Origin: Ministeria vibrans ATCC 50519
Taxonomy: Eukaryota; Protista; Filasterea
Direction: 5' to 3'
Assembly: GCA_943704425.1 (NCBI GenBank)
Contig: CALSCP010001243.1
Coordinates: 1 to 39,250, forward strand
DNA length: 39,250 nucleotides
The notes under the pieces are model-generated. The model ran no database searches. It had not been told where the DNA came from and was given only the letters and a program-made list of their open reading frames with translations. The first letter of the stretch is position 1, and each line of letters opens with the position of its first letter. Shown here piece after piece: positions 87-34,624 of the stretch. Made by a program: the position numbers and the translations under genes.

Positions 87-245
87 ACTTTGTTTTTTCT
101 CCCTCCTTTATTTCTCTCTCTCTCTCTCTTTCTTTCTCTCTCTCTCTCTCTCTTTTTTTTTTTCTTTGGTTTTTCTATATGTGTGCGTGACTGTCTCTCT
201 GTCTGCCTGTCCGAGTTCTCTCTGTTATCTGAATTTTGCCACGGC

Positions 246-3200
246 TCATTCGGAAGAATAAGTACTAAGAGCCTTTGGGACTTTGTATGGATCAAAGTCT
301 GTCACGTCGCGCTGCAGCAGGTAGTCTCGGAATGGCACCTGCCCAAAGCTGAGTTGATCAGAGAGCGCAGTATAGTCATCGTTAGTCAACTGCACCTCGC
401 AAGGCTAGGTGAAAAAATAGTCAATTGACAATCATAAATAAAGTTTGCATACCAGGTCAACAAACAAGTATCTTAGTGATGGAACATCCCGAAGGAGCGG
501 CGGAGCTGGTGTCCAATCATTATCCACAATGAACATGAGCGAGAAAAACGCCTGAACCTCCTCCCTTCTATCGTCCATAAGCATCTTGTGTACCACATCG
601 TGGAATTGCTCTGGTGTAAACTTGCCATGATCTACCAGCACGAGTGATTTGGTACGTTGGCTCGCCCGAAAGCTTGGCACTGTAACATGTTCCAGTCGCG
701 AAACCTCAACGAAATGAGCGCGAAGCAAAGCAGCGCCGACAATGTCGCGAGCAAAAGCTCGCTTGGCTCGGGTATTGCCACCACGCAGCACCAGCGCCAT
801 GGGCATACGCTTTGTTGGAAACTGAGCCAGATGAGCGAGCCAGCGAAAGATAAACTCGCGCACGTCATTGTCATTGCTCGCGATTGACACGCTGACGTGG
901 TTCTTAATGGCCTCCCATGGCTTTGTGTCTAGCATTGGACTGCGAGCACACGCCATCCACAATAGATCTGAGATAAAGACATCTGCCAGTGTGAACTCCG
1001 CTAATGTCGCGGCCCATTCACCATCGAGAAAGAGGCCACGCAAAACCTTGAGAAGAAACTCTCCAAAGGTAAAATGGAAGGCAAAGCACATGATTGCAAA
1101 GAGGGGCAAGAGGTAGAGAACCCAGCTCCACAGCGCATAGTATTTCAGTGCCCAGTTGCCCTTCTTGACAAAATAGGCAAGAAAGGCGGTGCACAGGGCA
1201 AGCATGAGTGCAAAGAAGAACGGTGTCGTCCACGTAGGACTATAGATAAATGCAAACGTGGCTGGCAACACGAGCAGGCGAAACATGCTCTCGACTGTGG
1301 ACCATGCGAGGATTGGCACAATCGTGAGGCGATCTTTCAAGCTGCCAACACCAAGGAAGAATGCAATGCGACCGAGTGTCCAGGGAAGATTGATAATGAT
1401 CACAAACAAATGGCTGGCCACAAGGGTCGATAGCCCTGCGCCGAAGAGAAACTTGGTCATCTGCTGCATTGCGTCGCAAAACTCGCTACCACAGTTTTCG
1501 AGAACCGATACGTCAACAAACTTCGTGTAGTCAGGCAGCAGACCGGCAAAGAGAGAGCCAGCAAAGAAGGGCATCGATGTGATCATAAACCCTCGAGACC
1601 AGCGAAGGCTGTAAAGCGACGGTCGAGCCAGATCAGCAAGGACAGCAAAAAGAACAAGCAATGAGCCAGTAAAGTACAGTGCCGCACTCCAGTGTCGAGA
1701 CACATCGAACATATGTAGGGCCCCATTGAAATCAGCTTGAGTCGTGTTTGTCGTGGACCCTGACGCCGCTGAGGTAAAGGAATCCAATCCAAAGCGGTTG
1801 GTGAGCGCCTGCTGCGCTCCCACAGTTGTCACATCGACCACCGATTTAATGCCAATGGTCAAAACACCGACACAGCCAATCCACAGGCATGGCCGTCGAC
1901 CCTTGATGCGCTCCCCGTATGTCTCCTTGTCGGCATTTTCGACTCGTTCCAGGAGCCAGTCGATAAATGGAGAATCGTGATACAGTTGAAGCACACGTTG
2001 GAACACCCGCACTGCGCGTGTCTGCAACTGCAGTGAGCACGCAAAGCACGCGCACTCCACTACGGTGCGCCGCATCAAATCGAGAACCAGCTCCGCAAGG
2101 AATAGACCCACAAAGATCACAAGCATCGGCAGAAAAAGGGCCACCAGAATAACTCCTGGGAACCAGGCAGAGAGAGAGAAGATTTCGCCACTGTGGCACA
2201 CCTTGTTTTTCCAAAGGGCTATGTAGCCAGCAAAGAACGCCAAGCTGTTGTAATCTTGTCGCGTACATGTCACCTTCTGGTTCATGCTCTTGAGCAGCTC
2301 GGGCCTGATAAATTCGCGCACAACATCGGGAACGTGCATGGAGTCTGACTGCAGATATGTGCGCGGTATGGTCGTCAAGACTTCAAACGAGGAACTCGCG
2401 AGGAACACCAGAAGTACGGTGGCGCAAAACGATATCACGCCGATGATTGCGACGGGTCGGTGATGCAGCAGTAACACACTGGCAATTGATAGACACGCCT
2501 CGACACCGAACGCAAGCACGGCCGTAGTCTTGACATTGGCTATCGATCGGCATTTTCGTGCGAGAATTCTCCGTCTCCAATGAATCCACTGCAGTACAAC
2601 CATGAGCGAGGCAGCCAGAGTGCACCAAAAAAAGTAGCTGTTGGGTGTCGTGACAGAGGCATACAAAATCGCCCCCAGACACAATTGCACAAACACGTGA
2701 ATGAGCGTGACACAGACTGAGAGTGGCACCAGAACGTCAACCCATTCATGTAGCCTGGCGTCTGTCACAGTGCCTTCGGCGGCCGTCGCGCTAAACCACA
2801 CCATGGTGAACATGAGCGCTGGCGGGATTGCCATTTCGGAGGCAAGAAAGGGCGCAAGCGCAGCCTGCAGGCACTTGACCGGGAACGCAGTTGACAGACT
2901 TGTGGAAAATAGGGCGCCAAGCGAGGAGCCGTCGGTTGCCGTGAAGGAGTCCCCAAAATGCTGCCACAAGGAAAAGGCAACAAACGCAAACAGCGACGAC
3001 AGTTCAAACAAGACCATGGCATGGAGAACTTGGGCTCGTGCGCTGAGCCGCGTTTCAAAGAGTCTCACCAGTTCCGTCTCGTGGATGTCGTATCGTACTA
3101 CCACAGGTCGGTGGTGCAGCTGATTTCTCGTCTTCGCCAAGAGGGAAGCGTTGGGATCGTCCGTGTCACTGCCAGCTTCGTGTTCACTAGTGTCGTCGTT

Positions 3201-6200
3201 GATGGCAAAGGGGCTTCCATGATCAGGGACCCCATACAGAGTTGCACCTGCAGCTGCAGGCATCTGTCGACGACGATCCTCAAACAACTTTCTGCGACGG
3301 TCAATCTCGGCAACACTTTCGCAAGTACAGAAGCACCAGCGAGTCAGCAAAATGAGTAGAAAGGCGACAATGAACAATGCCGTGGCCACAAACACAATCA
3401 CGTTCGCCTGGTCAATCAAACGCATCGCGACTGTTCCATCAAATTGACTTGAGTGCGCTACTGACAACTCCATTTCGTTAAAGACGGTGTGAAGAGGACT
3501 CAGCGTCTTCCATGCGACCGCAAACACAGCCATCAAAGACATCGCCAACACAGCACCAACAATAAACCCTGTGGGTGGTGGGTCCTCACGGCGCACCACG
3601 ATCCATTTCCATGACTTCCACCAGTTTTTGATGGCCCTCTTGCGGAAAATCATGCATCCAGTAATAAAAGCGAATAGAGCAAGACCACACGTCACACCAG
3701 CAATGAGGGGCACGTTTAATTCGCTGAACTCTGCACGACCACCACCAAGAGTAATGATCGTGCTGCCTGAGAGTCCTTGCTGCACACCAGTGCTTATGCA
3801 CGTTGAGTCATTCACTGACGTGCAAAATACATTTGGCGACGTGGTGGGATTGCAGTTACATGACTCGTCGCGTGAGAACAACACAGTCGCAATTTTTGCT
3901 CCTTCATAGGTCATCGAGACAGTGTGAGCACTACAGTAGAGCTGAGGCGCATCTCCGGTGCTCGTCGTGAGAACACCACCTGGGGCGTCACATGGAACAC
4001 ATGCACCTTGAGATCCCAAGTTGATTGAAGTGGAAAACGCCCGGTTGTCCTGGCAAATGTCAGTCTCTTTTTTTCGTGAGCCAAAATTTTTGACAAACAG
4101 ATCATCCTGAGAAATCGGACTCGCACCGCCACTTTGAATCACACGATCGTCCAAGAAGTTCGGAGAGATAGCAAATGATTGAACTGGGTGGCTCCCAAGA
4201 GCCGCTGGGATGCTGCCACAGGAAGAGTATTTGAGAGAGGGCACTGTATAGTTGCATTGCAAGCATCCCACGTCGCAAAAAAGTTTCACCGAAAACCTGT
4301 GTCCCTCCACGTTCAGCATGTTTATCAGAACGTTGACACCAAACACCTGACGGAGATTACTTGGGACATTAGAGCATTGTGACGAATTCACTGGAAGAGT
4401 GAATGATTGCGATCCAGTGTTTGTCATATCACAGTTGGTTGCAGTGAATCCAATGATATGGACAAGCATATTTGAAATGATGTCAGTGCCCACGTGTAGA
4501 GATGCATGTTGAGACAGTTTTCGCGAGCGTCGAGAGAGAAAAAGAGCAATACGCACGTCGGAATCTGAATCGGTTGCAGTACGCAATGGCGACTCCAACG
4601 GTGCAGTACTCGTCGTAGTTGCCTCACGAATAGAATGTTGATCATTCTGCAAGTTGGCGGGTTGTATATTTGGACAAAGAAGCCATGGTTTCTTGGCGTG
4701 TCCGGGCATGCACCAGGTTGTAATCTCAACGTAGCCTGATTTGCCGTTAGGGGAGGCCACCGAGCGAATCAAAGGATTGGGTGCCATAGGAACAAACATT
4801 CCCGAGACCGTAAGATAGTACTTGTTGAGCATGGCATTGAGACCCTCGTCGATTTTTGGAGATTGGGCCTGAATAAACTGCCGTGTTGCGTCTGTGTTGT
4901 GGATAAAGAGCGAATTCGATCCCATGACTTCGGCTTTTCCAGCACCAACCGTGATGGCCCCAACTTGAAAGAAAAGGCGTAGTGTTTGCATGTTCGGCGT
5001 CACAATCGTGGTAAACACTTGCTGTGTCGAATTGATCGCTTCGAGGGAGAGAAGGTGAAAGAAAATGTCAGAGGGATGGGGCTGTGTGGATGTCACCCCC
5101 TGTCCATTTGCTTCATCCCTGCCACTGTCATGCAAACTTGGCGGGGAGAGAGTATCATTCGATTTGGCCACACACGAGATGTCAAAATCAATTGTACTTT
5201 CGAGGGCAAGCATGGTCGCTTTCGTTGTGTCATTGAGCACCTGTATCACCTGTGGTGTACCAATAGTAACGTTGGTGATTAGATCAGCCCCATCGTACGT
5301 CACATTGTAGTTCGTGACAAAAAGACCGGCAAATTGAAAGCTCTCAAGCAATTGCGTGACGACACCTGCGTCAATCATAACGGCGCCAATGGCATTCAGG
5401 GTGTCTCCATCAAAGGTGGTCATATTGTTTGAATAGGTGGTTGGTAGTTGGGTTGGTGGCGTGGTATATGTTTGGGTTGCCACAGTGCCGTTAGGAAATT
5501 TGCGCGTCGCGGTTGACTCAGTTGCAATGTACGCAACAAAGTTATTCCGAGGGTGCCATAGAAGGTCAATCAGCTTGTACGTTGCCATAACTGAACCAGT
5601 CGGGCTGTCTTCGTGCAAAGTCACATGGTCAATATTGAAATTCTTATTCATGTGTGTGACCCAATTGTCGTATGAGGAGACAGCAAAATTTTGAATTTTA
5701 GCTGGCAAACCCTCGAGGAGCCAATGTACGAAAAAGTCCTTCTGACAATTATTAGTCGTGTCTATGGGTTTCTGGATCCATACGGGGAGGGGTGCCCCAC
5801 TCATTTTCACAACGTAGCCTTTGGCACCTTTGAAGATATCGAATACAGCAGTCTGCTTGAGGGAAGCGACAATATGTGCAATCTCGTCGCAAAGTGTTAT
5901 TTTAATGCCGACATGATAATGGGCTTCAATATGAAAGGAAAGCGTAACTGCTATGGTTGCGGTGACTTTGAGCGACCCAATAGATCCCGAAGCAACTGGT
6001 TTTTCAATTCCAACGTAAGTGGGAGTAAATTTAAGCGTGCGCTGCTTCTTTCGCTGATATGAATTGTAATCTCCGCCACATGTCATGCCATTCCCTCCAG
6101 TACACCCGTTAATATTAAAGTTGAGAGTCTGGAAGTATTGGAGCATCGGTTCTTGCAATTGGGCGATGGAATTTTTCACGGACTCTTGTGTTACAACAAC

Positions 6201-6461
6201 AACACCGTTGGAGAGGGTCGCTGAAATACTCTCTTGTGGGTTCAAAATTGGATGACTTTGCGGCGCATAAGGAGAGAAATAGGGGTTTCTTGGCAGTGGT
6301 GAGGGTGGCGACACGCCGGCCGCGTGTGGAGGAAGACCAGAGGATGCTGGGAAATTTTCGGAATATTCGAGCGGGGCGCGAAACGGGACGGCCGCGACGA
6401 GACTGCCACTCATGCACGTAATGCTAGAGAAGAGAAGCAAGTAGAGCAGCATAGACTGCAT
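246..6461 (-). CDS. ~2055-aa protein: signal peptide, probable BPI/LBP (TULIP)-like ectodomain, Cys-rich segment, many TM helices, C-terminal degenerate SF3/D5-like (DUF5906-type) helicase domain
   Basis: Exon 1 is 6461-453 (2003 codons). A 48-nt GT-AG intron at 452-405 (gtatgc...cacctag) leads to exon 2, 404-246, encoding PCEVQLTNDDYTALSDQLSFGQVPFRDYLLQRDVTDFDPYKVPKALSTYSSE*. Hydrophobic N-terminus; many hydrophobic helices from aa ~920 to 1840; C-terminal WLAHLAQFPTKRMPMALVLRGG...LVLVDH...FIVDNDW...RYLFVD pattern. Confidence 0.85.
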
Positions 6462-6671
6462 TTTGGCACAATTTTGGAACTGACCGAACGACAGAGAGAG
6501 AAGAATGTGAGAAAAAATATAAAAAAAAACAAAAAAATATGAAGAAAAAATCAGGTTGAAATCAGGTGAGTTTTTCGTGAGTTTTGATTGGATACGAATT
6601 TGATACCCCTTGGGATAGATTGTGGTTTTGCAATTGACCGCTGAAAAATGTAATAAAGCTCACCCCTAATT

Positions 6672-6930
6672 CCTAAACACTAATACCGCAAACGAAAGCG
6701 ACATGCGTCAAGCAGAATTTGCAGGCGACACGCAAAACGGAAGCAAAACGATTTTTTACAAAAAAAAACACAGTCGATATTACATATCTCGACCATATCA
6801 GCCCCGGACGACCATCGTAAACAAAGAAATATCACCTACAAACACCACTAACACAAACGAGAGCGACAGAAGTCATACATAATTTGCAGACGATACGAAA
6901 AACAATGTTTACAAAAAAACAGTCGATGAT
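6672..6930. repeat. Diverged direct repeat pair (~100 nt units, ~160 nt spacing) upstream of the large gene
   Basis: caaacgaaagcgaca...aatttgcaggcgacacgcaaaac...tttacaaaaaaaaacacagtcgat (6672-6780) vs caaacgagagcgaca...aatttgcagacgatacgaaaaac...tttacaaaaaaacagtcgat (6835-6930). Confidence 0.7.
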
Positions 6931-7129
6931 CCCCAAACAGTGTAAACACACAACAGCCCACCCCTACTCTCACACAGTGGACGGCGATTTGCAACGAGCC
7001 CCACAGTTTTGAGTCCGTTCTCGGCCATTACCATTGCGAACAGAAACGATGCACATCCCACACATTTACTGTTCGTCCTAGTTCCGTCTTAGTGTTGCTA
7101 TTTGGGACAACGGGTAAAGAATTGAAGAA

Positions 7130-7260
7130 TGCAGACTGATTGTCCGCAAATGACCAGTTAGTGTTTTTGTGTACGCTCCACTTTCAGTGGACCATAGTTT
7201 GATTGTCTTGTCCAAAGAAGCACTGAGAAGAATGAGAATACTCTTTCCCATGGAAGTGAG
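7130..7260 (-). pseudogene. WD40-repeat gene fragment
   Basis: LLSASLDKTIKLWSTESGAYTKTLTGH is a canonical WD40 repeat. Only about one repeat is present and it abuts telomeric repeats. Confidence 0.75.
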
Positions 7261-7265
7261 AATCG

Positions 7266-7285
7266 CCCTAACCCTAACCCTAACC
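7266..7285 (+). repeat. Interstitial telomeric repeat (CCCTAA)3CC
   Basis: ccctaaccctaaccctaacc read directly. Confidence 0.9.
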
Positions 7286-7289
7286 ATTC

Positions 7290-7830
7290 ACCTCCCTCTT
7301 CTTATGTACACCAACAGAGACTTTGCGCTGCGTCGACGCGCTTTGCAAACACTCGACCGACACTAACCGGGTGTAATTGTCGTCGTAGAGACGCCACCGG
7401 CCAGACTCTTGCGCCGTCGGTGGCGTGCGCGCGTGCTCCTCCCCGTCACGCACGATAGAGACGCCGTCATCTGCGTCTGCTGCAAACCGTTTCAATCCTG
7501 CTCTCATCAAATACAAGGAGTATAAAAGGTATAGTACAAACCATCAGATTAATGCACTAGTATATGCGGAGTATATACATCGTTGATTCGGTACCGACAA
7601 AAAGCACATTGGGATAGCGGTTCGATAGCGGTGCAAACGCGTCGTCTTGGTGAAAGCATGCGTCGCTCCGCACACGTCACATGATTTGACAATTGCTTCG
7701 CGATTGTTCATCAGTTCGTTGAAGCAATCAATGAGCATCGTGCAGGTAGATTCGCGAGGAACAGGCAACTGAAGACATTGTTCAGGTTGAAAGGTCCTCG
7801 ACGTGCTGCGACATGCACTCGTCGACAGGG
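7290..7830 (-). pseudogene. Ubiquitin-specific protease (peptidase C19) fragment
   Basis: STSRTFQPEQCLQLPVP...LIDCFNELMNNRE...CDVCG...TKTTRLHR...LKRF...GRWRLYDDN resembles USP finger and C-terminal boxes. No intact Cys-box or His-box; pieces are in different frames. Confidence 0.6.
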
Positions 7831-8038
7831 CGGCCACACGCGACTGAAGCAGGCTGTATGTCTCACTCGTAAAGAAGCTGTCACAACGCGACAGAAAGTT
7901 GGCCCAAAACTTGGAGGCGGGCGAAGCATGACTTGTCGCACGCGTGGGTGCGGGGCGTACATGTCGTTTGTGACGGTCCAACTTCGTGTGCAGTAAGTCA
8001 AGGTTCGCTTCAACTCGCTCCAACGACCCCTCCTAGAA

Positions 8039-8525
8039 ATGAAACAGAACCTGACGATCAACGACGCCGACGTCGTTGCCATGCTCAGACTACAGAAGAC
8101 GCTACAAATCGAGTCGCGCCTGCTCGACTCGACTGCGCAAAAATTTTCAAGCACATGTCCCTCAGACACGCCGCTGGGATACGGCGCGTTACAACTCCTC
8201 CCTCAACACCATTTTCGACATTGAACCACTCTCTCGATTGTTCTCTGAGCTATTGGACGCATACGGCCTTGTCAACAGCACGGCTGTATCGGTGGTACAG
8301 CCGCCCATAACACCGACACCCACGCTGCGCTGTGAGATCTCCCAGTGGACGTTGTGGTCCAATTGCACAGCAGAGTGTGGAACCAAGACCCAGACACGCA
8401 ACCGCACCATCGCCCAGTTGCCTTCGCATATGTGTGAGTCGTGTAACTCTGTCGCAGACTGCCCTTCCCTGAGTGAGACAGCTGGGTGCAACACCGTCGA
8501 GTGTCCAATCGACTGCACCGTCTCA
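8039..8525 (+). pseudogene. Thrombospondin type-1 (spondin-like) repeat gene fragment
   Basis: CEISQWTLWSNCTAECGTKTQTRNRTI...CPSLSETAGCNTVECPIDCTVS fits WxxWxxC..CG..RxR. The second repeat breaks off after DCTVS; the upstream part is frameshifted and has no signal peptide. Confidence 0.7.
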
Positions 8526-9621
8526 ATTAGTCTTTTAGTCTCGACTTCGTCTGTCTCAAAATGTGATTAGTCTTAGTTAGTCTCGTTGTTCCTTGGGGTC
8601 AGAAATGCGCTGCTCTAGTGCAGTAGCCATTCTTGCAAGGCGCTCCCCATTTGCCCGCAACACCGGCTGGCAAAGGTTGGCAAAGGTTTACTAATGTCTG
8701 AAACGACGTTCAAACGAAGTTCAATTCATGTTGGTATTGACGGCTGGCTGTATGGCGGGGCGAGAGGGGCGAATTGAAGTGATCTAGAGGTCAGGCAGGG
8801 GCCAGGGAGTTGACGGTCGAACGGCTGACGGCTCTATTCCTCCTACTCACTGCTTTTCTAAGTTCTCAGTGTGCCGCCTTTTGTGAAAACACAAACCGAA
8901 CAGTACGTGTATGGGTTGTAAAGTTGTGTTCGTGGTGCCTGTTGCGTTGAAGTTCCGTTGATATTACGAAGATTACCAACCCGAAACGCTGCTAAGCCCT
9001 TCAAATCAGAGCGTATCTACGGACACAACGTTGAGTGTGTATGTATATAGTGTGTTGGTGAAGGATGTATGATTGTGGAGGGCGGTGATTTTATATGAGA
9101 GCCACTCTCGCTTATTTTTTTATTATATTTTTTCGTGAACCAAAACATTCCCAAAACATGCCTTGCTCACTAGCGCCTGCAAATAATAGAGTCTGGAGTG
9201 TACGTGGTAAACTTCTGTATATCCGTCCTACCACCCTGAAACCTAGAAGGAAGAAGCTGTGGCTACTTCGTCACAACATCCAGGGGAATTTCCAAAAAAA
9301 AAAAAAACGGGTTCTGTGACCTCCTGGTTACTGCCCTAAACATATGTTTTTTATCTATGGCGTACATACGTATCAAAAGGTGTTTTATTCTACTCCGTGC
9401 AATGCTTCGCATAAGAAAAGAGAGAGTCTCCTCTTTTTTTCAGTATCCCTTTCTACACTCAGTAAAATAGTACCAGTAGCGCAGGCTGCGCGACTACCTT
9501 ATTTCTTTCTTGCCTGGCTGGTTGGTTTTATGTGCTTGGCTTGAACCTCTTGCCCATTTTTTTGGTATTACTTCGGCATCTGACTAACATCTGACACTCT
9601 CTTCCCAAGAGATTCTTCTGC

Positions 9622-12600
9622 ATGGCCGACCACAACGCCAACCTCAATGACGAACTTTTGCGTTCGGCGGCGTTTCTGTGCGATTGTCACAATGCAGACC
9701 CCGACGTTGTGAAACACAAGCTTAATGCCAACGCAAATCTCCACCTGATCACGCATGCGACGCCCACAACCAACGCGCCATTCCCTTACATCATCGCTCG
9801 CGGCAGCGCGTGTGAATACCGCGGAAAGGAATGTATCCCTTGCTTTGTCTCAGCCTCTGGTACAGTTTCATTCTCACATGTCATGGTGGATCTCTGTGCC
9901 TTCGTTGCTCCGCCCTTCAACGGCATCGACGGCAAAGTGCACGCTGGCTTCTACAATGCCTTCAACTCCATGCCCTTGGCCTTCCTGGACCGCACGATAC
10001 GAGATGGTCTCCCGATTGATGACGCGATGCCCAACGGTGAGCGATTGCCGGTACACCTCTTTCTGTGCGGGCACTCGCTTGGCGCGGCTCTTGCCCAACT
10101 CATGTGTGCGTGGCTTATTAATGGTAAGCGCCATGCGATAGAGATACCTGTCTCTATCTATCTATCTCTCCCTCTCTCTCCCTCTCATGAGCTCTCTTCA
10201 TCTCATACACACACACATAATTTTATTCCTCATTCTCTATTTGGTATTCTTCTCTCCTTCTGCAGTGCCTGGGATGGGTGCCCAGTGCAAAAACCGCGTC
10301 ACCATGCTCGGCCTCGGGTCTCCCTTGGTTGGCGACAAGGAGTATGCCTCCTCGTACGACCTTCGCTGCCAAGAGTATGGTGTGCGGAACTTCCAGTTCA
10401 TTCACAAGGACGACATTGTGCCTGCCATGATCCACGTTGTGCACGCGACGCTCTCATCCCTCGAGACCGACTCTTCCGACTCCACCACCAACTCCAACAA
10501 CACCTCCAACAACACCTCCACTGCCACCTCCGTTGCCAACTCATTGAAGAAGGAAGCGCAAAAGATGCTCCCAGCACTGCTCAACGTTATATCAGCAGAC
10601 AGCACGATACTCCAAACAATGGGAAGCATGATCCCTTCCTTGGCGCAGTTCGTTGGCCGCTGCCTGCGAATTTTCATCGAGTCGAATCTCGCCGTGTTTG
10701 ACGCCCATCGCTCTGGTGCTTACTGCATCCATGAGCTCGAACCGCTTTCGACTTGCGCCGCTGCCACCATCGCCGCCACCGCGGAGCGATTCACTCTGCT
10801 CGACTACACTCAGCTGCTGGCACGTCTCGAGCAGCATCGCCAACGGAGCTTTGATTTCGTCATGCTCCAACACCACCTCTGCCACAACTACGTTAAGCAC
10901 ATCTGTCGCAACCCACACGACCACGACGTCGGCTGTCCTGTGCAAACGCTCACGTCCATTCTGCCTCGCATCACTGGTCTCGCGCCCCACGGCAGCTTCA
11001 AGTCTCCGATGCCAGGCATTAAGTCGCGTGGCCGTTTCTCGCACTACATTGTGCTCAGTGGCAGTGGTCTCGACGCTGTCACCACAGTCAGACTGGTCCC
11101 GCAGATGTCCGAACCCGCGCCGGTGCGAGAGTTTGTGCCCGAGCCGAACACAACCTACACGCAGCTCGCGATTTTCTACGTGGACCGCGACGACTCGAGT
11201 CTCGACAACGCCCCCGTCAAACTCGTCTCCCCATTTGGCACTACCTCTAGTACGCTTCCTGGTGGCATCCGCACACAGGTGCCCCTGCTTAACGACGGCG
11301 TCAACCTGACTGCGGGCCGTATTGCCGTCAACAACCTCCCTCCCTTGCAGCTCTTCTTTTTTGCGCAGTTTATGACGCTGGTCGATGTCGACACGTCACG
11401 CAAGCAGGACGTGTCGCTGCTGCTGGACTGTATGGAGACGTACGGTGCCCAACTTGACGGCATTCCAAAGCTGAAGACGGAAATGGAGCTGCTGCTCAAG
11501 AAGGTGCGCAGTGAACAGGGCCGACATGCAGACATTGCCCAAATCCTCAAAGAGATGGATGCCGTCTTCTACGAAAAGGCGATCAAGGAGATTCAGGAAA
11601 GGAGGGAGGCATACTCTCCGCTTGTGAGTGTCACCAAACAAGTCCACGGCGCTCTGGAGACGCTGGAGGAGCCACGTTGGACTCTGTCACCTGAACCGGC
11701 CCATGGCAAGCAGCTGCAGGCGGAGACGACGACGACGACTCGGCTTGAAGCACTTGCGAGGGCACGGGATGCGGAAGCGGTTGCCTACGCATCTCTGCGC
11801 ACAATACGAGATCCGTTTGAAAGCCCTCAAGGCGCTCCTGCCACCGCCGAAGCTGGCGGCGGCGAGGTCGGCCGCCCCACCATCGTGAAAGCCATGTCCG
11901 ACTCTGTTCCGACCCTGCTTCGCGCGTACACGCGCCTTGCCAGGCCCTCCTTGAAGTTTCTCACACACCCGCTCCGTATTTTCGGGCTGGTGCTGTTGGG
12001 AGTGGTTATTGCTGCTGCGACGATTGGCTGTGCAGTCGCTGCCATGGCTGCCATGGCGGTAGTGGAGGTGGCTGGGGCTGTTCTCGCCGGAGGGGCTGCC
12101 ATAAGCGCCGGTGCGGCGGCGGCGGTGGGCAGTGTGATCACGGCTGCGCTCGTTGCCCTTGCTGTGCACATCGGCAAAGCCTTGAAGGCCCTTGACCATG
12201 ACTACTACACGGCTCTCGCCGATGTTGGGTCTCGCTTGGGCATTGACATGAGCGCACGTCCGTCTGGAATGTACTTCTCTGAGGCGGTCATTGTGCAAGT
12301 GCTCAAGGGCAGCTTTGGGTTTGCCGACTCGCACGACCTTCTCAAGTTTATTCGCACTGACCCCACCACCGTCAAGCACCGTCTCCTTTTGCTCTGCCCA
12401 AACGACGGCTCTAAAACGTGTCCTTCCCGGATCTTCGAAAAAGTCAAACCTACATCTGAGCTGCGACTCGCCGAGTTTTTGCATCAGGTAATAATTGTAA
12501 AAGGTTGCTTCAGTTTCTTGTTCACATTTTGTATCGTTAAATGTGCCGTAGGTGTACATTATGTATGAGCTGCGGGATGTGCTGTCCAAGGTGGTGCTTG

Positions 12601-15539: not shown

Positions 15540-18500
15540 TTAGTTGGCATTGTCCTCATCGTCTACATACGTATACGTAGCACGTTCAGACACCTCGGAT
15601 GTTTTCGAGCATGCAGCGCTGGGACACGGCGAAGGCCCAAAAATGGCACTGGCTTCTTCGTGAGTGTTCAGAGTTTGCAACACCTCACGTGCCTTGTCGC
15701 GCTCTTCAACCTGCTTGGCATATCTGCTCTCAAGAAGCCCGTGCTGATCGCGCGTCTTCTGCACCCGTACATACGCCTTCGCACCGAGACCTGCAGCCTC
15801 AAACGTGGCAGAGTAGCCGGACAGGTCACGTGAAGACGTCATGCTCTCGGTCTTGGCAAACTCCTTTGCTAGCTTCCGCGCATTGCTGATGCTGCCTAGT
15901 CCTTTCATGACAAATGCATCGTCAGGGCCACGCAGAAACTCTTGCAGAGCAGGGTGGTTCAAGGTGCGAGCGCTGGGCATACACCACGAGAACACGGGAG
16001 GCGCACTGGGGGTGTCTTGCTCCAAGAGGTGTACAAGTCGTTCGTGCAGCAGGCAGAGCACACGGCGCTGAAGAAGGTAAAATTTCGATTTACCTTCTGA
16101 CATGACCGCGGAGATGGTGCGCCGTACGTCAGCTAGACTCTCTTGGGCGGCAGTTTTAGCTGCACTGATAGCTACGTCGTCGGCTCCGAGGCGCACCCCT
16201 AACGTAAGACGCGCTCGCACGTCTTCGACGACATCGGGACGCGAGAGAATGAGCTTCCCGCAGTCTTGTGCGATAATGGAGGCATGGTCTCCTTCACGCT
16301 CAAGCAGCTGGAACACAAAGTGCGTGGCGTCGCGTACGCTGAAGCCTTCGCTTTGTACGGCACATCGGACACGGTCAGCAATAGGACCAACGGGCCACTC
16401 GCCGGCAACGGCAACCTCGGTACATATCTGGCAAGCATTGTATGATACGAGCATCCTGCCGTCGTCCTCGGTCATGCTGTCCCACACACGCACAATGATG
16501 GCACGGATGCGCGCCACAGCTTTTGCATCGTCGCTTAGCGACAACACATCTTCCGCAAGTGCTTCCAAGAGAACAAGAGGCACGCGGTAGCCATACCGTG
16601 TGTTTTGTTGCTGCAGCACAACGAACTCAAGCATCGCATCCACAAGAGACGGCGGGTTCCAGTGCAGCTGAGAAAGTTGCTCGACAAAAATCTCAAGGTC
16701 GATCGCGCAGGCAAACACATCACCTCTGTCGTTCGACGTCTGTGTACCCACAATTAGGTACTCCCGAACAAACCGCTCGCAAAACGCCGCGTCTGTGGGA
16801 CCGTCGGAGAAAAACAGCGTGATCAATTTGTCGATGCTATCGGACGAGTTGACCACAGCCTCAGGAGAGCTAGTGACGGCGTCAAACAGCACGAGAGCAT
16901 CCCGTCGCTTTTTAGCATCATCTTTCCCAGCAGCAACCAGAGCCATGGCAGCATCCATGCTGGCTGCCATAAAAAATGGCACTACCTGCGTGCTCCTCAG
17001 CAGCACCAGCATAGCACGGTGATAGACGGTGTCCTTCGACGGGCCTGAATTGCCCATGTACTCCTCCTCGTTCCCGTCCTCGCCCACACCCCAAAAGTCC
17101 GCGTTGGCATCTCCTGGTGTTTTGATCAGCTCCGAGTCTATGACGGTCCCAAGACAGACCCCGCTTTCCGTGTACCACGTGCTCTCACGCGAAGTATCCA
17201 CAACTTCCCACGACGGACTCACTGCACCGCCACGTGCACACTTCTTAGGACGGCACCCTTTCGCCACAAGCATCCTAACCCCTCTCCCCGGATTTCCTGC
17301 CATCATGTCCACGCGTTTAAGGTTCACCAAAAACACCTGAACGTCGTCATCATCGTCCAAGCGCTTGCTGACGGCCTGCACAAACTTTAGCATTGCCCTT
17401 TCGCGTCCTTTCAGGCAAGACAATCCCTTCACTGCCGATAGTTCCGTGTACTGCAAATCAAAAAAGAAAAAGACAAAGAGGAACAACAAAGGTACAACAC
17501 AACATTGAGTACCAGTAATTTAGCACGAGAAATCTATTATGCTGGTGTGCTTACCTTGTGCTCCAGAGGCATGGCCAAGACTGGATGCTGGACGGAGTCC
17601 CACTCCTGCAACACAAGCACTGCCTGCTTGACCGCTTCGCCGTGCGACAGCGACGGAGCCGCCACACGGTCGCCGGTCCACACAATGTTGTACACAACGG
17701 CAAGGCGCTGTCCATTCGTCAGTGGCTCGACTTCGTGCTCGACGTCCGCGTAGTGAGCACAGTAGTTGCACCCAAAAGCGGCGGTGTCACCTGCGCCGAA
17801 CGTGTGCTTGTACGTCTTGCGTTGGTGGTAGGCAATGAGGGCGCCTCCGGTGCAGTTCGATGCAAGCTGGATTACCAGCGTTGCAAACATGCCGTCCTCT
17901 TTCTCGGTGTCTCGGTGGCGCAGGAAGAAGTCCCCTTCACGATAAAGTAGCAGTTTGTAGGGGTGTGCCTCGACGGACGTGCCAGCGCCAAGCTCAGCGG
18001 CGACAGTGCGAGCAAACGCAGCCACGGCGCTCTCCCACGCAGGGTTCTCAAAGCGGAAGTGGGCAGGATCGATGTCGCGTGACTTGCGGACTGTCTCGTC
18101 GTAGACAGTGGCAAGACCGCGGCCGTGCGGAGACGCCACACTGTTGGACACAAGAAACGCCAAAGTCTCGTCGTCCGTCAGCGGGAGCGGGATGCGACGT
18201 TCGTGCACCACCAGGCCCGGGTACCCCGGAAGCTGTGGCGCATGTCCTCCAACACAGACCTGCAGAGGGGGTGTTTTGTTTTGTTTTTTAATTTTGGGAA
18301 AATAATACGGAGTTGAGAGGGGATGATTTCACAATTTTGGAAAATGAATGCTTACTCTCCCAGCAGCCAGCAAGCCCGACCGCTCGAGGCAGGCATTCAG
18401 TGTGTTAATGGTCTCGTCGACGCCCGCGGAGCGCACAATGATTGCCTTGGTCTTCTTTGTCTTGGACCTCTTAAAAGCGGAGGCGATCGTCTCGTCCCAG

Positions 18501-19130: not shown

Positions 19131-20715
19131 TTACAGAAAATACACAATGGGAACACCCACGGCACACACCAAGATGGTTGATGGGACTCCAATCCGCACA
19201 AAGTCAACAAACCGCAACTGATTGAGAGATTTCTCAGCCACAATCATGTTCGCAATCGAACCTGTGACGGTCAAATTTCCCCCTGCAGTCAAAAAAGAAA
19301 GAGAAGATTAGCAATTAATACTGTTGTTGCCTGACCAAAAACATAGATGTGTACCAACTGTAGCAGCAAAGGCAGTGATGTACCACTGAGGCCCACCGGG
19401 GACACTGCCGGGGAGACTGTCAAGCAGGGGGAGAAGTAGAATGATAAGGGGAACGTTGCTCATGAATTGAGACATGAGAATGACGACAGCAGAAAGGAAG
19501 TAACAACCAGAGAGCGAGTTCACATGTATAAGGGGGGAGATATGCTGCCAAATAGCAAGGGGTACGCCAGTGGACGAGAATGCCTGCATAATGACAAAAA
19601 GAGAGCTGAAGAAGACCAGCAGGGGCAAGTCTACTGCCTCTCCAAAAGCTATCGACACATCCCCGCCGTTCACAAACACATTGCTGATGAGCAATACAAA
19701 GGCTCCCGTCATGCTCGCCCAACCTCCATTGCACCCTGCAATTAGACTCACAAGAACGCCAACAATGACCATCACAACAATCAGTTGAAAGTAGGGAGAG
19801 GCATTCCTTTGATCGATCGCAGGACAATCGAGGCCACTCTCAGGTATTGTCTCGTCATGCTCTTGCAGTCTACTAGAGGGTACAACTGTGGACTCTGCAT
19901 CGAGTTCTGCCTCAATCAAAGGTAAAGAAGCGACAACAAGCAAGGGCCGGTTGTCTTCCAGAGCAAGCGAGAGTACATCCTCGAGTACCACAGCAGGCAG
20001 AGGCTCATTGACAGAGGCTGTGAAGGCGTTTGAACGTTTCCTTTGGGGTCTGAAGAAAAGCACAAGTAAGAGCAAGGTGTTAAGAACCAATCCAACACTC
20101 GCTGCGAGGCCACAGCGCAGGAGAAATTTCGAAAAGGTGACGTGCGTGAACGGAGAAGAGGCAATGATGGCATTTTGCGGATTCCCAACAAGCGTCATGG
20201 CAGACCCTATGTTGGCACTGGTGCTGAGAGTCTGAGGGAGAGCGAGGGGTGGGTTGGCACTTGTATCTCGTGAGGCTGTGGTTTCTCTGTACCAGAAGGA
20301 AGGGGACAGGTGAGACATTGCGTTCAGTGCACAACTCCATGACAAAGGGCGTCAGAATGATTGCCGCAGCGTCGTTGGTGATGATTGCTGAGAGGACAGC
20401 CGTCAGCAATGCGAGTCTCCACACAAGCGAGCCCCCTGAGGATTGCTGCAGAAGGCGCTTCAAGCGGAAGAAGAGTCCAGAGTCTCGAAGAAAATACCCT
20501 AGTATCATCGTGCCAGTCAGCAGCATCAGCGTGGGGAGCGAGATAGAGTCATAGGCTGCAGAGGAGGATATGATCTGCGTGGCTACTGCCAGGACGGCTC
20601 CAAGGAGAGCAAATCCAAGTCGTCCCAACCACAGTCGACGTGGAATGGATATTAAAATTATAGTACAAATAGCAATCATCGTCCCGCCTATTGCGCGGGG
20701 TATGTCTTCAATCAT
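19131..20715 (-). CDS. ArsB/NhaD-type anion permease, Lsi2 (silicon/arsenite efflux transporter)-like
   Basis: Exons 20715-20293, 20231-19355, 19282-19131. Motifs TNDAAAIILTP, SANIGSAMTLVGNPQN, MSNVP, TVGGNLTVTGSIANMIVAE. Confidence 0.88.
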
Positions 20716-21078
20716 GACCGAAAACGAGAAATGTTGAGAGAAAATTGAAGGACCTTTAGGGCAGAAGGGTCCAAGGAGATATATTCAAATAAACCCACTT
20801 TCTTTCTTCTAGGACGCTCCAACTGTTCAAGGATTCAGGAATCAGGATAGTCTGATATTTCTATGGATTTCATAACGGAAGCCTTTCGCATTGTATTTTT
20901 GTTTTACTTTTTGTCTTATTTGTTCTCAATGAGTCACACACTCACACTTACACAATGACAATTGACAAAATAATAGTTTCATTGATCACTAAATTCACTT
21001 AATTTCTCTCTTTTATCTCCGGATTCACCTTACTACAACACTACTGTCTACTAGTACTAGTACTTGACAATTGTTACC

Positions 21079-25946: not shown

Positions 25947-27188
25947 TCATACAGTCGGCTCATCTTTTACACGAAAGCGCCACAGCTGGTCGTCGAGCAA
26001 AAGGCGCTCGGTCAAGGACCAGCCGGACTCGATGGCGCAGGCGCAAAAGCGGTCAAACGAAAGGGACGCATCGGAAGGGGCAGAAAGAGTCAACAGCACG
26101 GCAGTGTAGTAGGCGTGAAGAATATCGCGCGGGCAGGCGAGAGCATGGAGAGAAACGTCGATGGGAGCGTGTGGGGTGGGATCAGTCGGATGGACGACGA
26201 CAAAGGTGTCGCTGGGATGAGGAGGTCGGCTGGAAGACGCATTGCTGAGAGCGACACCAAGTCGAATGCGTGCCGGGTAGGGCGGTGTGAACACATAGAA
26301 GACCGTCTCCTGTTGGCGCACTTCTTCGGGTGTGAGTACGGTGGCACCACGGGACTGGACAAAAGCGCGGATGGCAAGGAAGGCGCGTTGACGGTTGAAG
26401 GTGCTCATGCGTACGCACCGCACACAGCGGTAATTAAAAAAGATGTGAAGTACAAGAAAGACGCTCACAAATGTCCAGACAGCGAAAAACGAGTCGGCAA
26501 ACATGGGCAAGATGTAGAAACTCGCGAGCATCGCCGCAAGGTTGACAAGCGTCTCTTGCGACCCGTCTTTGGCACTCACATCCCCCAGATTGTCGGCGCG
26601 CGCCTGATGCTGTGTCATGGACGCACGCGTCGCCGCTCCCGCCACACCCACAACGGCTCGACACACGTTAGAGGTGCACAATATGGCAGTGGTGAGATAC
26701 AACGGAAAGAGGGGTGCCAGCAGCTCGAGAAGGAGCGCACAGTCGTTGAGGAGGTCTGCAACAAGACGCATGCGCTTGCACTCCTCGTCGAGACGATGCC
26801 CCTTGAAGTAGGCAAAGACAATGCCCGACACCATGCCGCTCATGTTGCGCAAGAAGACCACCAGCGCCGCGGCAGTTGCCGTTGCCGTTGCTTCGCCAAC
26901 CCCAAGCGACCGGAAGGTGGCGTGCACCGCAAAGGCACCCACAAGGCTGCTGGAGAACGCCTGAAGGGTATCAAAGGTCTGGTACTCCAGGTAGTCGTCG
27001 CTGACGGATGCTGGGTAGCCCACGGGTAAGAACACGTCGCGCACCAGCGCCACAACCGAACTAGGCGCCGCAGAGCCGTATCCCGGACGAAACGACTCAA
27101 TCCGCCCGCTACCCTTGCAACCCGCCTCCTCTCCAGGCTGTTTCCGGCGTGCAGGAGACCGTGATCGCGACCCTCGTCGACGTTTCAT
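25947..27188 (-). CDS. RUSF1: RUS1/DUF647 family protein (RUSF1/C16orf58-like)
   Basis: FLPVGYPASVSDDYLEYQ, RLVADLLND, GAATRASMTQHQA..DNLGDVSAKDGSQETLVNL; single exon. Confidence 0.92.
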   Translation of the reverse strand: MKRRRGSRSRSPARRKQPGEEAGCKGSGRIESFRPGYGSAAPSSVVALVRDVFLPVGYPASVSDDYLEYQTFDTLQAFSSSLVGAFAVHATFRSLGVGEATATATAAALVVFLRNMSGMVSGIVFAYFKGHRLDEECKRMRLVADLLNDCALLLELLAPLFPLYLTTAILCTSNVCRAVVGVAGAATRASMTQHQARADNLGDVSAKDGSQETLVNLAAMLASFYILPMFADSFFAVWTFVSVFLVLHIFFNYRCVRCVRMSTFNRQRAFLAIRAFVQSRGATVLTPEEVRQQETVFYVFTPPYPARIRLGVALSNASSSRPPHPSDTFVVVHPTDPTPHAPIDVSLHALACPRDILHAYYTAVLLTLSAPSDASLSFDRFCACAIESGWSLTERLLLDDQLWRFRVKDEPTV

Positions 27189-27479
27189 CCCCACAAACAA
27201 ACAAATCAAAAAATTATATAATAATAATAATAATTATTATTAGAATTATTATTAGAATTATATATATAATTCGACTCATTGGAGTGTGCAGTCGTCAGAC
27301 GAATAGTTTACGTTCAATGAACGCTCAATGACGAACACAAATCACAAATTACCCTCCTTAGTCCCCTCAGTCATTTGATCTTTCTGAACACTGAGTCTCA
27401 CGGAGTCTCACTGGCTCAGTGAGTGAGCACATAAAAAAGAGTTGATTTGTACATGTACATGGCCACACTCCCTTGGGCA

Positions 27480-30660: not shown

Positions 30661-33180
30661 ATGCTTGTGTTCCTCATCCTCACCGCGCTTCTGTCCTCCA
30701 GCCACTCTCTACAGTGCCCCTCGATCCCCCCAGGTCACGAACGAGTGCCTTGCCTCACTTGGTGGAATTGGGATCTCACTGAACAACAGGTATAGAAAAT
30801 ACATAATGTAATATCAACACTGCAACTCCTTTTTCGCTTTCTCTGCTTTCGCAGTGCACCGAACGCGGCTGCTGCTGGGATCCCGCCCAGCCGTTGCTTC
30901 AACGATGCTTTTACACAGCAACGACCGCCGCACCCGTTGAGGATGTGTATGTCATCCAGGGGTGTCATTTGGACATTGGCTTCGTCAAGTCCGCCACCGA
31001 CATTGTCAATCTCTGGTTCCACCATCATTTCCCTCTGGCACACTCCGTGGGCAAAGCCCTCGCGGCGTCAGGCGGTGAATTTGATGCCCAGCTCAAGTTT
31101 ACGGCGCAGTCGTGGCTCGTGTCCATGTACGTGTCGTGTCCACCGGACTGGGAGGGCATTGTGTGTCCCAACGCAACGCAACTTGCCCAGTTCGAAGAGA
31201 GTGTGCGCAATGGCTGGATCACCTGGCACGCCTTCCCGTTCAATGGAGAGCCCGAACTTGCCGACGAGGATCTGCTTGACTACGCCATCGAGCTGACTCA
31301 CTCGCTCGACGACCGCTTCGGCTTACCGCGCAAGCAAGTCATGTCGCAGCGTGATGTGCCCGGCATGACGCGCGCCATTCTGCCCCTGCTTGCACGCCAC
31401 AACATCACCACCATTTCGGTCGGTGTCAACGGAGGCTCCACCCCACCCAATGTGCCCAAGGCGTTTCTCTGGCGCGACAGCCCGTCCAACACAACACTGC
31501 AGGCGCTGTACGTCCAGGGCGGCTATGGTGGGATCAACTTCTTCAACAAGGAGGGCCTCTACGTGCACACACGCATTCCGGGCTCAACCATTGCCGCCGT
31601 CGTCGACTGGCGCGGCGACAATGCCGGCCCGCCGCCGTCGCCCGACGATGTGCGCCACCACTTTGCCCAGTTGCGCCGCCAGTTTCCGTCTGCTCGCATC
31701 CGCGCCTCCACCTTCGACGACTTTGCCCGTACCCTTCGCAACCACCACGCTGCCCTCCCCACTCTCACCGCCGAAATAGGTATGTGCTCTCTTCACATTT
31801 CTTCCACTCCCTCGCTCGTGCTGATGGCCATGGATAGGTGACACGTGGATCTACGGCGTCAGCAGTGACCCGGTGAAGCAGGCGCAGCTGCGTCGCATTG
31901 GGTCCCTGCGGCAGGCGTGTGTGCGCGGTGGAGCCTGTGTGCCGTCCGATGCGCGTGTCGAGCACTTCTCGCGGCTGTTCCTTAAGGGCAACGAGCACAC
32001 GTGGGGCCTCGACGACAAGACTTTTGTGCGTCCGCCAGCTCTGCACGCCAACTGGAGCAACGTCGAATTCGAAGTAGAGCGCACCCGCAATCCCGGTTAT
32101 GCCGCGCTGGAGGCGTCGTGGGTGCGCCAGCGACGCTGGGCTGTGGCAGACGCAGTGGACGCGCTGGGGGACCATCCACTGGCGGGCGACATTGAGCGTG
32201 TGCTTGCCGACATGCGCTCTGTCCACGTCCCTTCGACCGCCAACTACACACGCGTGCACTCCGTCGAGGGCACTCGCTTCCGCTGCGGCCAGCTCGAAGT
32301 GGGCTTTAGTAGTGCATCGGGTGCTCTTGTGCATGTCAAGGATCTCACGACGGGTCTTGTATGGGCCGACGGCGGCACCAGCTCTCTCTTTGGCGGAAAT
32401 TCGACGCTGGGCGCACCGCTCTACCGCACCTACTCGGGCGACGACTACGTTGATTTTACGCTGCGCTACTCGTACTTGGGGCCTCTGGGCCGAGTCGACG
32501 ACGGCGATGATTTTGAAAAGATTGGCATTGACAAGTACGGTGCAACACGACGCTCGCTGGGCACACAGCTGCGTACCCTGTGGACCCGCGAAACAGCACA
32601 CAACACTAGCGAGTTTCTTGTCGAGCAGCAGTTTGTCGACGGAGAAAGTGTTCATCGCGATGTGGGAGCTCCTGCGTCGCTGTGGCTGCGCGTGAGTGTG
32701 GGTCACTCGGCGGCGCGCTCCGTCAACATGACGCTGCTGCTCTTCAACAAGACGGCGACACGACTGCCCGAGACGACCATGCTGCACTTCCGCCCGTCTC
32801 TGCCCAACACTGTCGTGCATGTGAACAAACTCAACAGCGCATGGATCGACCCACTTGACGTCATGACGGGCGGCAGTGCCCATCTGCACGCGACTGGCCC
32901 GCTTGGCGTTCGCTTCACCCACCCTGGCACAAGCGATCATGACCCGTCGTCGTCTCTTACTATCTCGTCGCCCGACATTGCGCTGGTCTCTCTCGGCGCA
33001 CCCTCTCCTTTCCCCACTCCGACATCCCAGCTCCCCGACATCCCTCGCTTCGGCGTCTCCTTTGTCGTTCACAACAACCTCTGGAACACTAACTACCCTA
33101 CGTGGTTTCCCTTTGGCGATCCTCTCTCCCCCGAATACGACACAAACCTCAAGTTTGATTTTACCCTCTCCTTTACCTGA
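30661..33180 (+). CDS. Secreted trefoil (P-type) domain + DUF5054/GH38-like glycoside hydrolase
   Basis: Exons 30661-30789, 30855-31779, 31838-33180. Signal peptide MLVFLILTALL; trefoil C...RVPC...TEQQ/CTERGCCWD...CFY; HLDIGF, WHAFPFN, DVPGMT, EIGDTWIYG, EHTWGLD, NNLWNTNY. Confidence 0.85.
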
Positions 33181-34410: not shown

Positions 34411-34624
34411 TTTCGTCGAAGAAGGAAGAAGATGAATAATAAAATAAACATAAACAATTAACAGAATTCACCAGATTACAACAAAAGCGCAAGTGCAATC
34501 GTTATCCACTCTGAGTGTTGACATAAAGGACAGTAGTCAGTACTCACAGAAATGAGTGAGTAATCACAGTATTCAGTGTATAATGTATAAAATGAGGTAA
34601 TCGCAATGATACGCCATTAAAAAA

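What the first reader, a model, noticed from the sequence alone, without database searches (positions are those of the whole stretch)
246..930. Domesticated, catalytically dead viral-type SF3 helicase fused to the tail of a giant membrane protein
Seen: the last ~200 aa read PWEAIKNHV..IASNDNDVREFIFRWLAHLAQFPTKRMPMALVLRGGNTRAKRAF...HFVEVSRLEHVT...SLVLVDH...FFSLMFIVDNDW...RYLFVDL, then a 48-nt intron missed by the ORF track, then ..DYTALSDQL...FRDYLLQRDVTDFDPYKVP. Knowledge: this follows, in order, the D5/NrS-1-like (DUF5906) helicase of phage and NCLDV primase-helicases (WLA..Q.P..K...ALVL.G.QG.GKS; F...L..KLLV..DE; SN..W; RRF.V; YLL.RD...F.P). Here Walker A is GGNTRAKR, Walker B is DH and motif C is DN, so ATPase activity is probably lost. 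The spliceosomal intron inside the domain indicates a host gene rather than a recent insertion. Inference: a membrane receptor carrying a captured viral replication domain, possibly as an oligomerisation module or as a decoy/sensor for viral helicases. I know of no described protein with this architecture.
Basis: partly seen in the sequence, partly recalled or inferred. Interest (0 to 1): 0.85.

Follow-up and report, generated by a model that had tools for sequence, protein, structure and literature searches.

The report
Dead phage helicase on membrane receptor
A spliced, transcribed gene of an unidentified eukaryote encodes a 2,055-residue multi-pass membrane protein that ends in a domain related to phage DNA helicases but lacking their DNA-gripping hairpin and several catalytic residues, likely kept as a non-catalytic scaffold on what is predicted to be a lipid-sensing receptor.

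Summary
Observation confirmed. The minus-strand gene runs from ATG 6455 to stop 246. Its 48-nt GT-AG intron (405-452) is skipped in four RNA-type runs of one study. RNA-type contigs and an independent DNA contig bridge the membrane/helicase junction. The last ~215 aa are the AAA+ module of NrS-1/DUF5906 superfamily 3 primase-helicases (202 hits among 1.84 billion representatives; profile 86 bits; exon 2, not used as query, also matches). It is dead as a helicase: a 10-residue deletion removes the DNA-binding hairpin (spacing 31 in 133 of 133 relatives, 21 here), and two P-loop glycines, Walker B Glu, motif C Asn and the first finger Arg are replaced. Walker A Lys and the arginine finger remain. 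Primase, collar and winged-helix domains are absent. Relatives found are phage and bacterial; the donor cannot be placed. New here: the ectodomain resembles LBP/BPI lipid-binding proteins (one weak-to-moderate line of evidence). No orthologue was found, so selection rests on an indirect simulation. Best reading: a non-catalytic scaffold or clustering tail (0.45). Drifting relic 0.25, nucleotide sensor 0.17, antiviral decoy 0.08.

The parts
453..6455 (-). Exon 1 coding sequence, ATG 6455 to the splice donor; 2003 codons without a stop
   Evidence: RNA-type contigs cover parts without gaps; DNA contig X3 spans 150-7000 (may be the source of the window)
405..452 (-). 48-nt GT-AG spliceosomal intron, phase 0, inside the helicase-like domain
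   Evidence: joint 404/453 in X6, X8, X9 and X10
246..404 (-). Exon 2: 52 codons and TGA; last helices of the helicase module, ending 9 residues after the last conserved proline
6384..6455 (-). Likely signal peptide (aa 1 to about 24)
   Evidence: hydrophobic segment 4-22; inference from sequence
4530..6236 (-). Ectodomain predicted to be LBP/BPI-like (tandem lipid-binding TULIP fold), aa 74-642, with 7 N-glycosylation sequons
   Evidence: ESM Atlas features 0.93, 10 of 10 best family-bearing hits in one family or clan, low recognition value; Pfam, PDB sequence and fold searches blank
3786..4427 (-). Cysteine-rich extracellular region (13 Cys in aa 677-888), unassigned
   Evidence: no family hit
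942..3698 (-). Multi-pass membrane region, aa 920-1838: 14 segments at hydropathy >=1.6, 18 at >=1.2; no known family
   Evidence: no hits
270..956 (-). Captured SF3 helicase AAA+ module (aa about 1834-2048), matching the 'Body' of NrS-1 polymerase
   Evidence: (hhalign 99.6%, E 2e-23)
759..782 (-). Degenerate Walker A: two glycines replaced (130 and 133 of 133 relatives have Gly), lysine kept
627..632 (-). Walker B: Asp kept, Glu (132 of 133) replaced by His
561..569 (-). Site of the 10-residue in-frame deletion that removes the DNA-binding hairpin (NrS-1 K525 equivalent, Lys in 132 of 133)
522..524 (-). Motif C position: Asn (132 of 133) replaced by Asp in the ungapped alignment
471..476 (-). 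Arginine pair: first Arg (NrS-1 R555 equivalent) replaced, arginine finger (R556 equivalent) kept

Best explanation
A eukaryotic membrane-protein gene carries, fused in frame at its 3' end and split by a spliced intron, the AAA+ module of a phage-type primase-helicase that has lost its DNA hairpin and several catalytic residues and likely persists as a folded, non-catalytic tail that would cluster the protein or dock partners, probably on the cytoplasmic side. Shown: gene structure, splicing, transcription across the junction, homology, motif losses. Inferred: capture of a fragment from a phage or prophage gene (for example from prey or symbiont DNA), later intron gain, loss of unwinding, retention of the fold under selection. 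Predicted only: a lipid- or LPS-binding LBP/BPI-like ectodomain whose ligand state would be relayed through the membrane region to this tail; cytoplasmic location; self-assembly.
For: The captured piece starts and stops at the module's borders: homology begins at about aa 1834 and the protein ends 9 residues after the last conserved proline, where 125 of 133 relatives continue for over 80 residues. In NrS-1, K525A and R555A show no obvious unwinding (PMC7102993); both equivalents are gone here. Conserved positions are kept in the N-terminal helical part (8 of 9) far more than in the catalytic core (7 of 24), Fisher p=0.004, a post hoc split. 47 of 53 hydrophobic core columns stay hydrophobic; 8 of 400 neutral-decay simulations at matched identity reach that and 3 of 400 avoid every stop. 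All indels against the family keep the frame. A single-sequence model (pLDDT 51) matches P-loop/AAA+ chains at Z 5-6.4. GC3 of the domain (0.54) lies within the gene's range, 0.47-0.63. In NrS-1, K525A stabilises the hexamer.
Against: No orthologue found, so no dN/dS. In the simulation, overall profile score (25 of 400) and quality of non-consensus residues (42 of 400) are only borderline, and retention at the 22 most conserved columns (11 of 22) equals neutral expectation. The relatives were selected by similarity to the query, mostly its N-terminal part, which inflates these tests. The collar/Head region that precedes the module in D5 and NrS-1 rings is absent. The only domain SNP seen in another population is non-synonymous, the two in the membrane region synonymous (n=3). 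The last membrane segment (aa 1820-1838) is weak (1.39, three acidic residues); without it the domain would face outward.
Confidence: 0.45

Rival explanations
1. Passenger relic: a helicase fragment landed in frame at the gene's end, is tolerated and drifts. The frame stays open mainly because early stops upstream of the last intron would trigger nonsense-mediated decay, or because the protein needs some C-terminal tail.
For: Terminal branch of 4.84 substitutions per site against a median of 0.84; mean identity 24% to relatives that share 41% among themselves; retention at the most conserved columns equals neutral expectation; no orthologue.
Against: Exon 2 lies past the last junction, yet is open, homologous and ends at the module border; hydrophobic core better kept than in 392 of 400 neutral runs; losses concentrate in the catalytic core.
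Confidence: 0.25
2. Nucleotide-sensing or slow-NTPase switch: the kept Walker A Lys, Walker B Asp and trans-acting arginine finger still bind ATP, dNTP or another phospho-ligand between subunits and gate or regulate the membrane protein, as pseudo-enzyme domains do on some channels (recalled analogy: TRPM2 NUDT9-H).
For: Lys (133 of 133), Asp (118 of 133) and finger Arg (132 of 133) are kept while neighbours changed; K453 and R556 are the nucleotide-contacting residues of NrS-1.
Against: Two P-loop glycines are replaced, including the NrS-1 G450 equivalent whose backbone binds phosphate; the residue after Lys is Arg, where all 133 relatives have G, S, T, N or D; 3 kept of 9 catalytic or DNA-binding positions is within what drift gives.
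Confidence: 0.17
3. Antiviral decoy or dominant-negative: the tail co-assembles with, or is attacked in place of, an incoming virus's SF3 helicase.
For: Mavirus-related elements in eukaryote genomes often encode DUF5906 helicases (PMC13215967); a parvoviral Rep element blocks parvovirus replication (PMC10384997).
Against: The relatives recovered are phage and bacterial, which a eukaryotic cytoplasm would not normally replicate; identity is only 24-28%; collar and DNA-binding parts, which DeRep retains, are missing; the domain is tethered to a secretory-pathway membrane protein.
Confidence: 0.08
4. Artefact: misassembly, or two genes read as one.
For: No listed RNA-type contig spans the whole transcript; RNA status of the runs is a guess and all come from one study.
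Against: One open frame of 2075 codons; RNA-type contigs 747-1235 and 733-1160 bridge the junction with no differences; an independent algae-metagenome contig 540-1900 bridges it with 3 SNPs; the same RNA runs skip the intron.
Confidence: 0.03

Closest known systems
NrS-1 polymerase C-terminal helicase (PDB 6K9C, 6K9E, 6LRB) and DUF5906 (PF19263) primase-helicases of phages such as Pseudomonas MP1412, Epa5, ZC01
   Same: Same AAA+ module and motif order; the closest solved structure to relative P0018; 112 phage records match the window domain at E<=0.01, best 4e-7 among the 25 listed.
   Different: No primase, collar or winged-helix domain; hairpin deleted; P-loop, Walker B Glu, motif C Asn and first Arg changed; fused to a membrane protein; has an intron.
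Poxvirus/NCLDV D5 and mavirus-related DUF5906 helicases
   Same: Same superfamily and Pfam domain (PMC9611036, PMC13215967, passages read).
   Different: None of the 29 DUF5906-bearing hits scanned showed D5_N or Pox_D5; no named eukaryotic-virus relative was recovered, but most hits are unnamed.
Domesticated parvoviral Rep genes: degu DeRep and the guinea-pig Rep-myosin fusion enRep-M9L
   Same: A viral SF3-helicase-type gene kept open and expressed by a eukaryote, in one case fused to a host gene (PMC10384997 passages; the fusion paper seen only as a reference there).
   Different: Those derive from viruses of the host and DeRep keeps DNA binding; here the donor looks phage-like, only the gutted AAA+ module is kept, and it sits on a multi-pass membrane protein.
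LBP/BPI/CETP (TULIP) lipid-binding proteins
   Same: Language-model features of aa 74-642 match LBP/BPI clusters of eukaryotes and Bacteroidota (0.92-0.93).
   Different: Those clusters are 408-556 aa proteins; here the region heads a 2055-aa multi-pass protein. Sequence and structure searches did not confirm the assignment.

Membership tests
SF3 helicase, NrS-1/DUF5906 type | Sequence homology over the AAA+ module | tested here: met
   the direct Pfam scan of the query itself is blank, PHROG 1156 primase E 0.005
SF3 helicase, NrS-1/DUF5906 type | Walker A GxxGxGK | tested here: not met
   two Gly replaced, Lys kept; 125 of 133 relatives have the pattern
SF3 helicase, NrS-1/DUF5906 type | Walker B acidic pair | tested here: not met
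   Asp-His; Glu in 132 of 133
SF3 helicase, NrS-1/DUF5906 type | DNA-binding beta-hairpin with Lys (NrS-1 K525) | tested here: not met
   10-residue deletion; spacing 31 in 133 of 133, 21 here; mapping through
SF3 helicase, NrS-1/DUF5906 type | Motif C Asn | tested here: not met
   Asp in three alignments; an Asn follows, so a one-residue shift is possible
SF3 helicase, NrS-1/DUF5906 type | Arginine finger (NrS-1 R556) | tested here: met
   kept; the preceding Arg (R555) is replaced
SF3 helicase, NrS-1/DUF5906 type | Primase, collar and C-terminal winged-helix domains | tested here: not met
   a profile extended 130 aa upstream and about 150 aa downstream (113 relatives) matches only the module
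SF3 helicase, NrS-1/DUF5906 type | AAA+ fold | tested here: inconclusive
   model pLDDT 51, exon 1 only; best Z 6.4, rmsd 3.5, 101 aligned, generic P-loop and AAA+ chains; Foldseek E>0.001
SF3 helicase, NrS-1/DUF5906 type | Hexameric ring, NTPase and unwinding activity | not tested
   needs bench work; no complex prediction was obtained
Poxvirus/NCLDV D5 | D5_N and Pox_D5 context, or placement among NCLDV helicases | tested here: inconclusive
   absent from 29 scanned relatives; tree cannot place the query and held no named NCLDV rows
LBP/BPI/CETP | Tandem TULIP fold or PF01273/PF02886 match | tested here: inconclusive
   Atlas features positive at low recognition; Pfam blank; model pLDDT 33
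Domesticated mobile-element domain | Part of a spliced, transcribed host gene | tested here: met
Domesticated mobile-element domain | Purifying selection and conservation in orthologues | tested here: inconclusive
   no orthologue found; simulation gives mixed, partly positive support

The most novel reading that the evidence does not exclude
A protist pattern-recognition or lipid-sensing receptor built from an LBP/BPI-like ectodomain, a new family of about 14-18 membrane segments and a cytoplasmic assembly module taken from a bacteriophage replicative helicase: the DNA hairpin was cut out while the lysine and trans-acting arginine finger were kept, so that the helicase ring now clusters or gates the receptor in a nucleotide-dependent way.
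Probability: 0.18. Interest if true: 0.87.

Novelty: new variant of a known kind. Interest (0 to 1): 0.62.

Why it matters
Capture of viral replication genes by eukaryotes is known, but the SF3 cases I read derive from viruses of the host and keep DNA binding. Here a phage-type helicase module has been trimmed to its borders, stripped of the DNA hairpin and catalytic residues, given an intron and attached to a large membrane protein with no known relatives. If the tail is functional, it shows a replicative helicase recycled as a receptor scaffold, in the way NLRs use a P-loop module to oligomerise, and points to an unstudied class of microbial-lipid receptors in protists. It is directly testable: the 215-aa domain can be expressed, and the NrS-1 mutants give residue-level predictions. 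As it stands it is one gene in one species, which limits the weight.

Tried and rejected
Orthologue searches: three word-indexed protein searches, one full HMMER scan with exon 1 of the domain (no hit at 1e-10) and two metagenome scans found none. Control: 0 of 4 open frames of this window, two of them from other genes, are in the collection by exact match, so the organism's proteome may be missing and the blanks are weak. No whole genome is held, so paralogues outside the window were not examined; none inside it. Strain comparison gave 3 SNPs only; run X12 laid nothing. No run is on record as RNA; RNA status rests on the skipped intron. Tree: donor unplaceable. Folding the ectodomain failed (pLDDT 33) and its Foldseek rows are meaningless. 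An attempt to obtain bacterial LBP/BPI proteins for a profile comparison found none in 5 and 401 genomes, with no positive control ringing. Atlas search of the membrane region gave no usable hit. NCBIfam and PADLOC blank. Complex prediction of three copies was not available, so nothing was folded. P0008 (tandem-repeat artefact) and P0074 (PDZ) were dropped, with 15 hits too short, leaving 133 of 150. A genome scan with P0009 found nothing. Earlier findings of the scan: five look-ups, all empty. Literature searches for a comparable architecture listed none by title or abstract; the library lacks most subscription papers, and no supplements were read.

Full report
Gene structure. The minus strand holds one open frame of 2075 codons at 432-6659. 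Its first Met (nt 6455) starts a hydrophobic segment that looks like a signal peptide. A GT..AG intron of 48 nt at 405-452, phase 0, joins it to a 52-codon exon ending in TGA at 246-248, giving 2055 aa. Contigs of three RNA-type runs and a fourth, all of one study, skip exactly 405-452; DNA-type run X3 does not. Contigs 747-1235 (X6) and 733-1160 (X8) bridge the junction between the last membrane segments and the domain, and an algae-metagenome contig of another study covers 540-1900 with 3 differences. No listed RNA-type contig spans the whole gene. Neighbouring genes are ordinary eukaryotic genes, some with introns. I did not identify the organism.

Homology. Pfam and PDB sequence scans of the domain are blank, and PHROGs gives one primase family at E 0.005. 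A full HMMER scan of 1.84 billion representatives with exon 1 of the domain gave 202 hits at E<=1e-3, best 2e-7, over its first 100-140 residues. Of 31 of the 150 listed hits scanned, 29 carry DUF5906, several with PriCT-2, Prim-Pol, RepB, DnaG zinc-ribbon or Toprim domains, and none with D5_N or Pox_D5; two were spurious. A profile of 133 hit regions (2 spurious and 15 short hits dropped) matches aa 1846-2048 at 86 bits; hhalign gives 99.6% and extends the start to about aa 1834. Shuffled and reversed controls stay at or below 10.5 bits, and exon 2, absent from the query, beats all 1000 shuffles. The closest solved structure to a relative is the NrS-1 helicase. Counting residues in that alignment against the paper's numbering places the captured piece at about the 'Body', residues 404-593, plus a short lead-in (PMC7102993).

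What is lost and kept. Among 133 relatives: two Walker A glycines (130 and 133 of 133) are replaced and the lysine kept; Walker B Asp is kept and Glu (132) is His; motif C Asn (132) is Asp; of the Arg pair the first (130) is replaced and the second (132) kept. The spacing across the beta-hairpin is 31 residues in 133 of 133 relatives and 21 here, and the deleted stretch contains the lysine that aligns with NrS-1 K525. In NrS-1, K453A abolishes hydrolysis; K525A, R555A and R556A reduce it 3.8-, 7.4- and 15.4-fold and show no obvious unwinding; K525A also stabilises the hexamer. The protein lacks the K525 and R555 equivalents, so loss of unwinding is well supported by inference. Loss of hydrolysis is likely. 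Loss of nucleotide binding is open. A wider profile from 113 relatives finds no primase, collar or winged-helix sequence.

Origin. The domain matches 112 annotated phage records and 2 plasmids at E<=0.01. A scan with an alignment of relatives returned 80 viral loci; of 12 examined, 11 have phage-family neighbours, 5 a DNA polymerase. A motif scan of bacterial and archaeal genomes gave 15 loci, 13 encoding the same helicase type, across several phyla. These two scans were seeded with relatives, not the query. The tree puts the query on a 4.84-substitution branch with no supported sister. So the nearest known subfamily is phage and bacterial, but mavirus-related elements also encode DUF5906 helicases (PMC13215967) and cannot be excluded as donor. 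The intron, the long branch and host-like GC3 argue for an old capture.

Selection. With no orthologue, I compared the domain with 400 simulated neutral decays of relatives to the same mean identity. Hydrophobic core retention (47 of 53) was reached in 8 of 400, the profile score in 25 of 400, the quality of non-consensus residues in 42 of 400; retention at the most conserved columns was ordinary (254 of 400); 3 of 400 runs met no stop mutation. Conserved positions are kept in 8 of 9 cases in the N-terminal helical part, 7 of 24 in the catalytic core and 3 of 7 in the C-terminal part. These tests are post hoc and biased by how the relatives were chosen. They favour a maintained fold without proving it. 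A single-sequence model of exon 1 (pLDDT 51) resembles P-loop and AAA+ chains at Z up to 6.4, which is inconclusive.

The carrier protein. After the signal peptide come about 900 residues with 10 of the 12 glycosylation sequons, then 14 to 18 hydrophobic segments. Reading the N-terminal region by eye I suspected an LBP/BPI fold (recalled resemblance, noted at 40%). The ESM Atlas later returned LBP/BPI/CETP clusters at 0.92-0.93 with 178-189 of 256 shared features, ten of ten family-bearing hits agreeing; the recognition value is low (1535), and shuffled proteins reach 0.9 in 4-10% of cases. Pfam, PDB, folding and a profile attempt did not confirm it. I put it at about 70%. The membrane region has no relative. 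Charge bias suggests the tail is cytoplasmic only if the weak segment 1820-1838 crosses the membrane; the domain has no sequon.

Mechanism. Most likely the module is a folded, non-catalytic tail used for clustering or partner binding (0.45). Rivals: drifting relic (0.25), nucleotide-sensing switch (0.17), antiviral decoy (0.08), artefact (0.03). Oligomerisation was not tested.

Comparison and novelty. It descends from NrS-1/DUF5906 helicases but fails the catalytic membership tests, so it should be called a pseudo-helicase domain. Precedents for SF3-type domestication are parvoviral Rep elements (PMC10384997). Seven literature searches listed nothing with this architecture; one search found only 8 papers naming DUF5906. 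Papers seen: PMC7102993, passages and two parts of the main text; PMC9611036, PMC10384997 and PMC13215967, passages; the guinea-pig fusion paper, reference line only; all others, search listing only; no supplements. TRPM2 and NLR analogies are recalled.

Verdict. Real, well-supported observation; a new variant of a known kind with an undescribed architecture; function inferred; one species. Interest 0.62.

Noticed in passing
   Followed up: partly
window about 7120-7290: Three TTAGGG-type telomere repeats (7266) lie next to a short minus-strand stretch that reads like a fragment of a WD40 repeat (recalled resemblance). Further short telomere-like repeats at 14057 and 14750.
   Followed up: no
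window 7544-8032 (-) and 8055-8570 (+): A short frame with a CxxC resembling a ubiquitin-specific protease fragment (recalled), and a thrombospondin type 1 domain frame; both may be gene fragments.
   Followed up: no
window 9595-12568 (+): Class 3 lipase split by an apparent intron, followed by about 700 unassigned residues with a long Ala/Val-rich hydrophobic stretch.
   Followed up: no
window 30807-33180 (+): Trefoil domain followed by DUF5054, apparently one intron-containing gene for a secreted glycoside-hydrolase-like protein.
   Followed up: no
window 15540-18328 (-), 19308-20784 (-), 25947-27233 (-), 33587-34467 (-): 2OG-Fe(II) oxygenase with a long C-terminal region, CitMHS transporter, RUS1-family protein and intron-split imidazoleglycerol-phosphate dehydratase.
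   Followed up: no
window 6598-6835: An RNA-type contig (X8) lies upstream of the presumed start codon, suggesting a 5' UTR of 380 nt or more, or another transcript.
   Followed up: no
L094: A short contig assigned to a Micrarchaeota genome bin encodes the same bacterial/phage-type helicase; may be a binning error.
   Followed up: no
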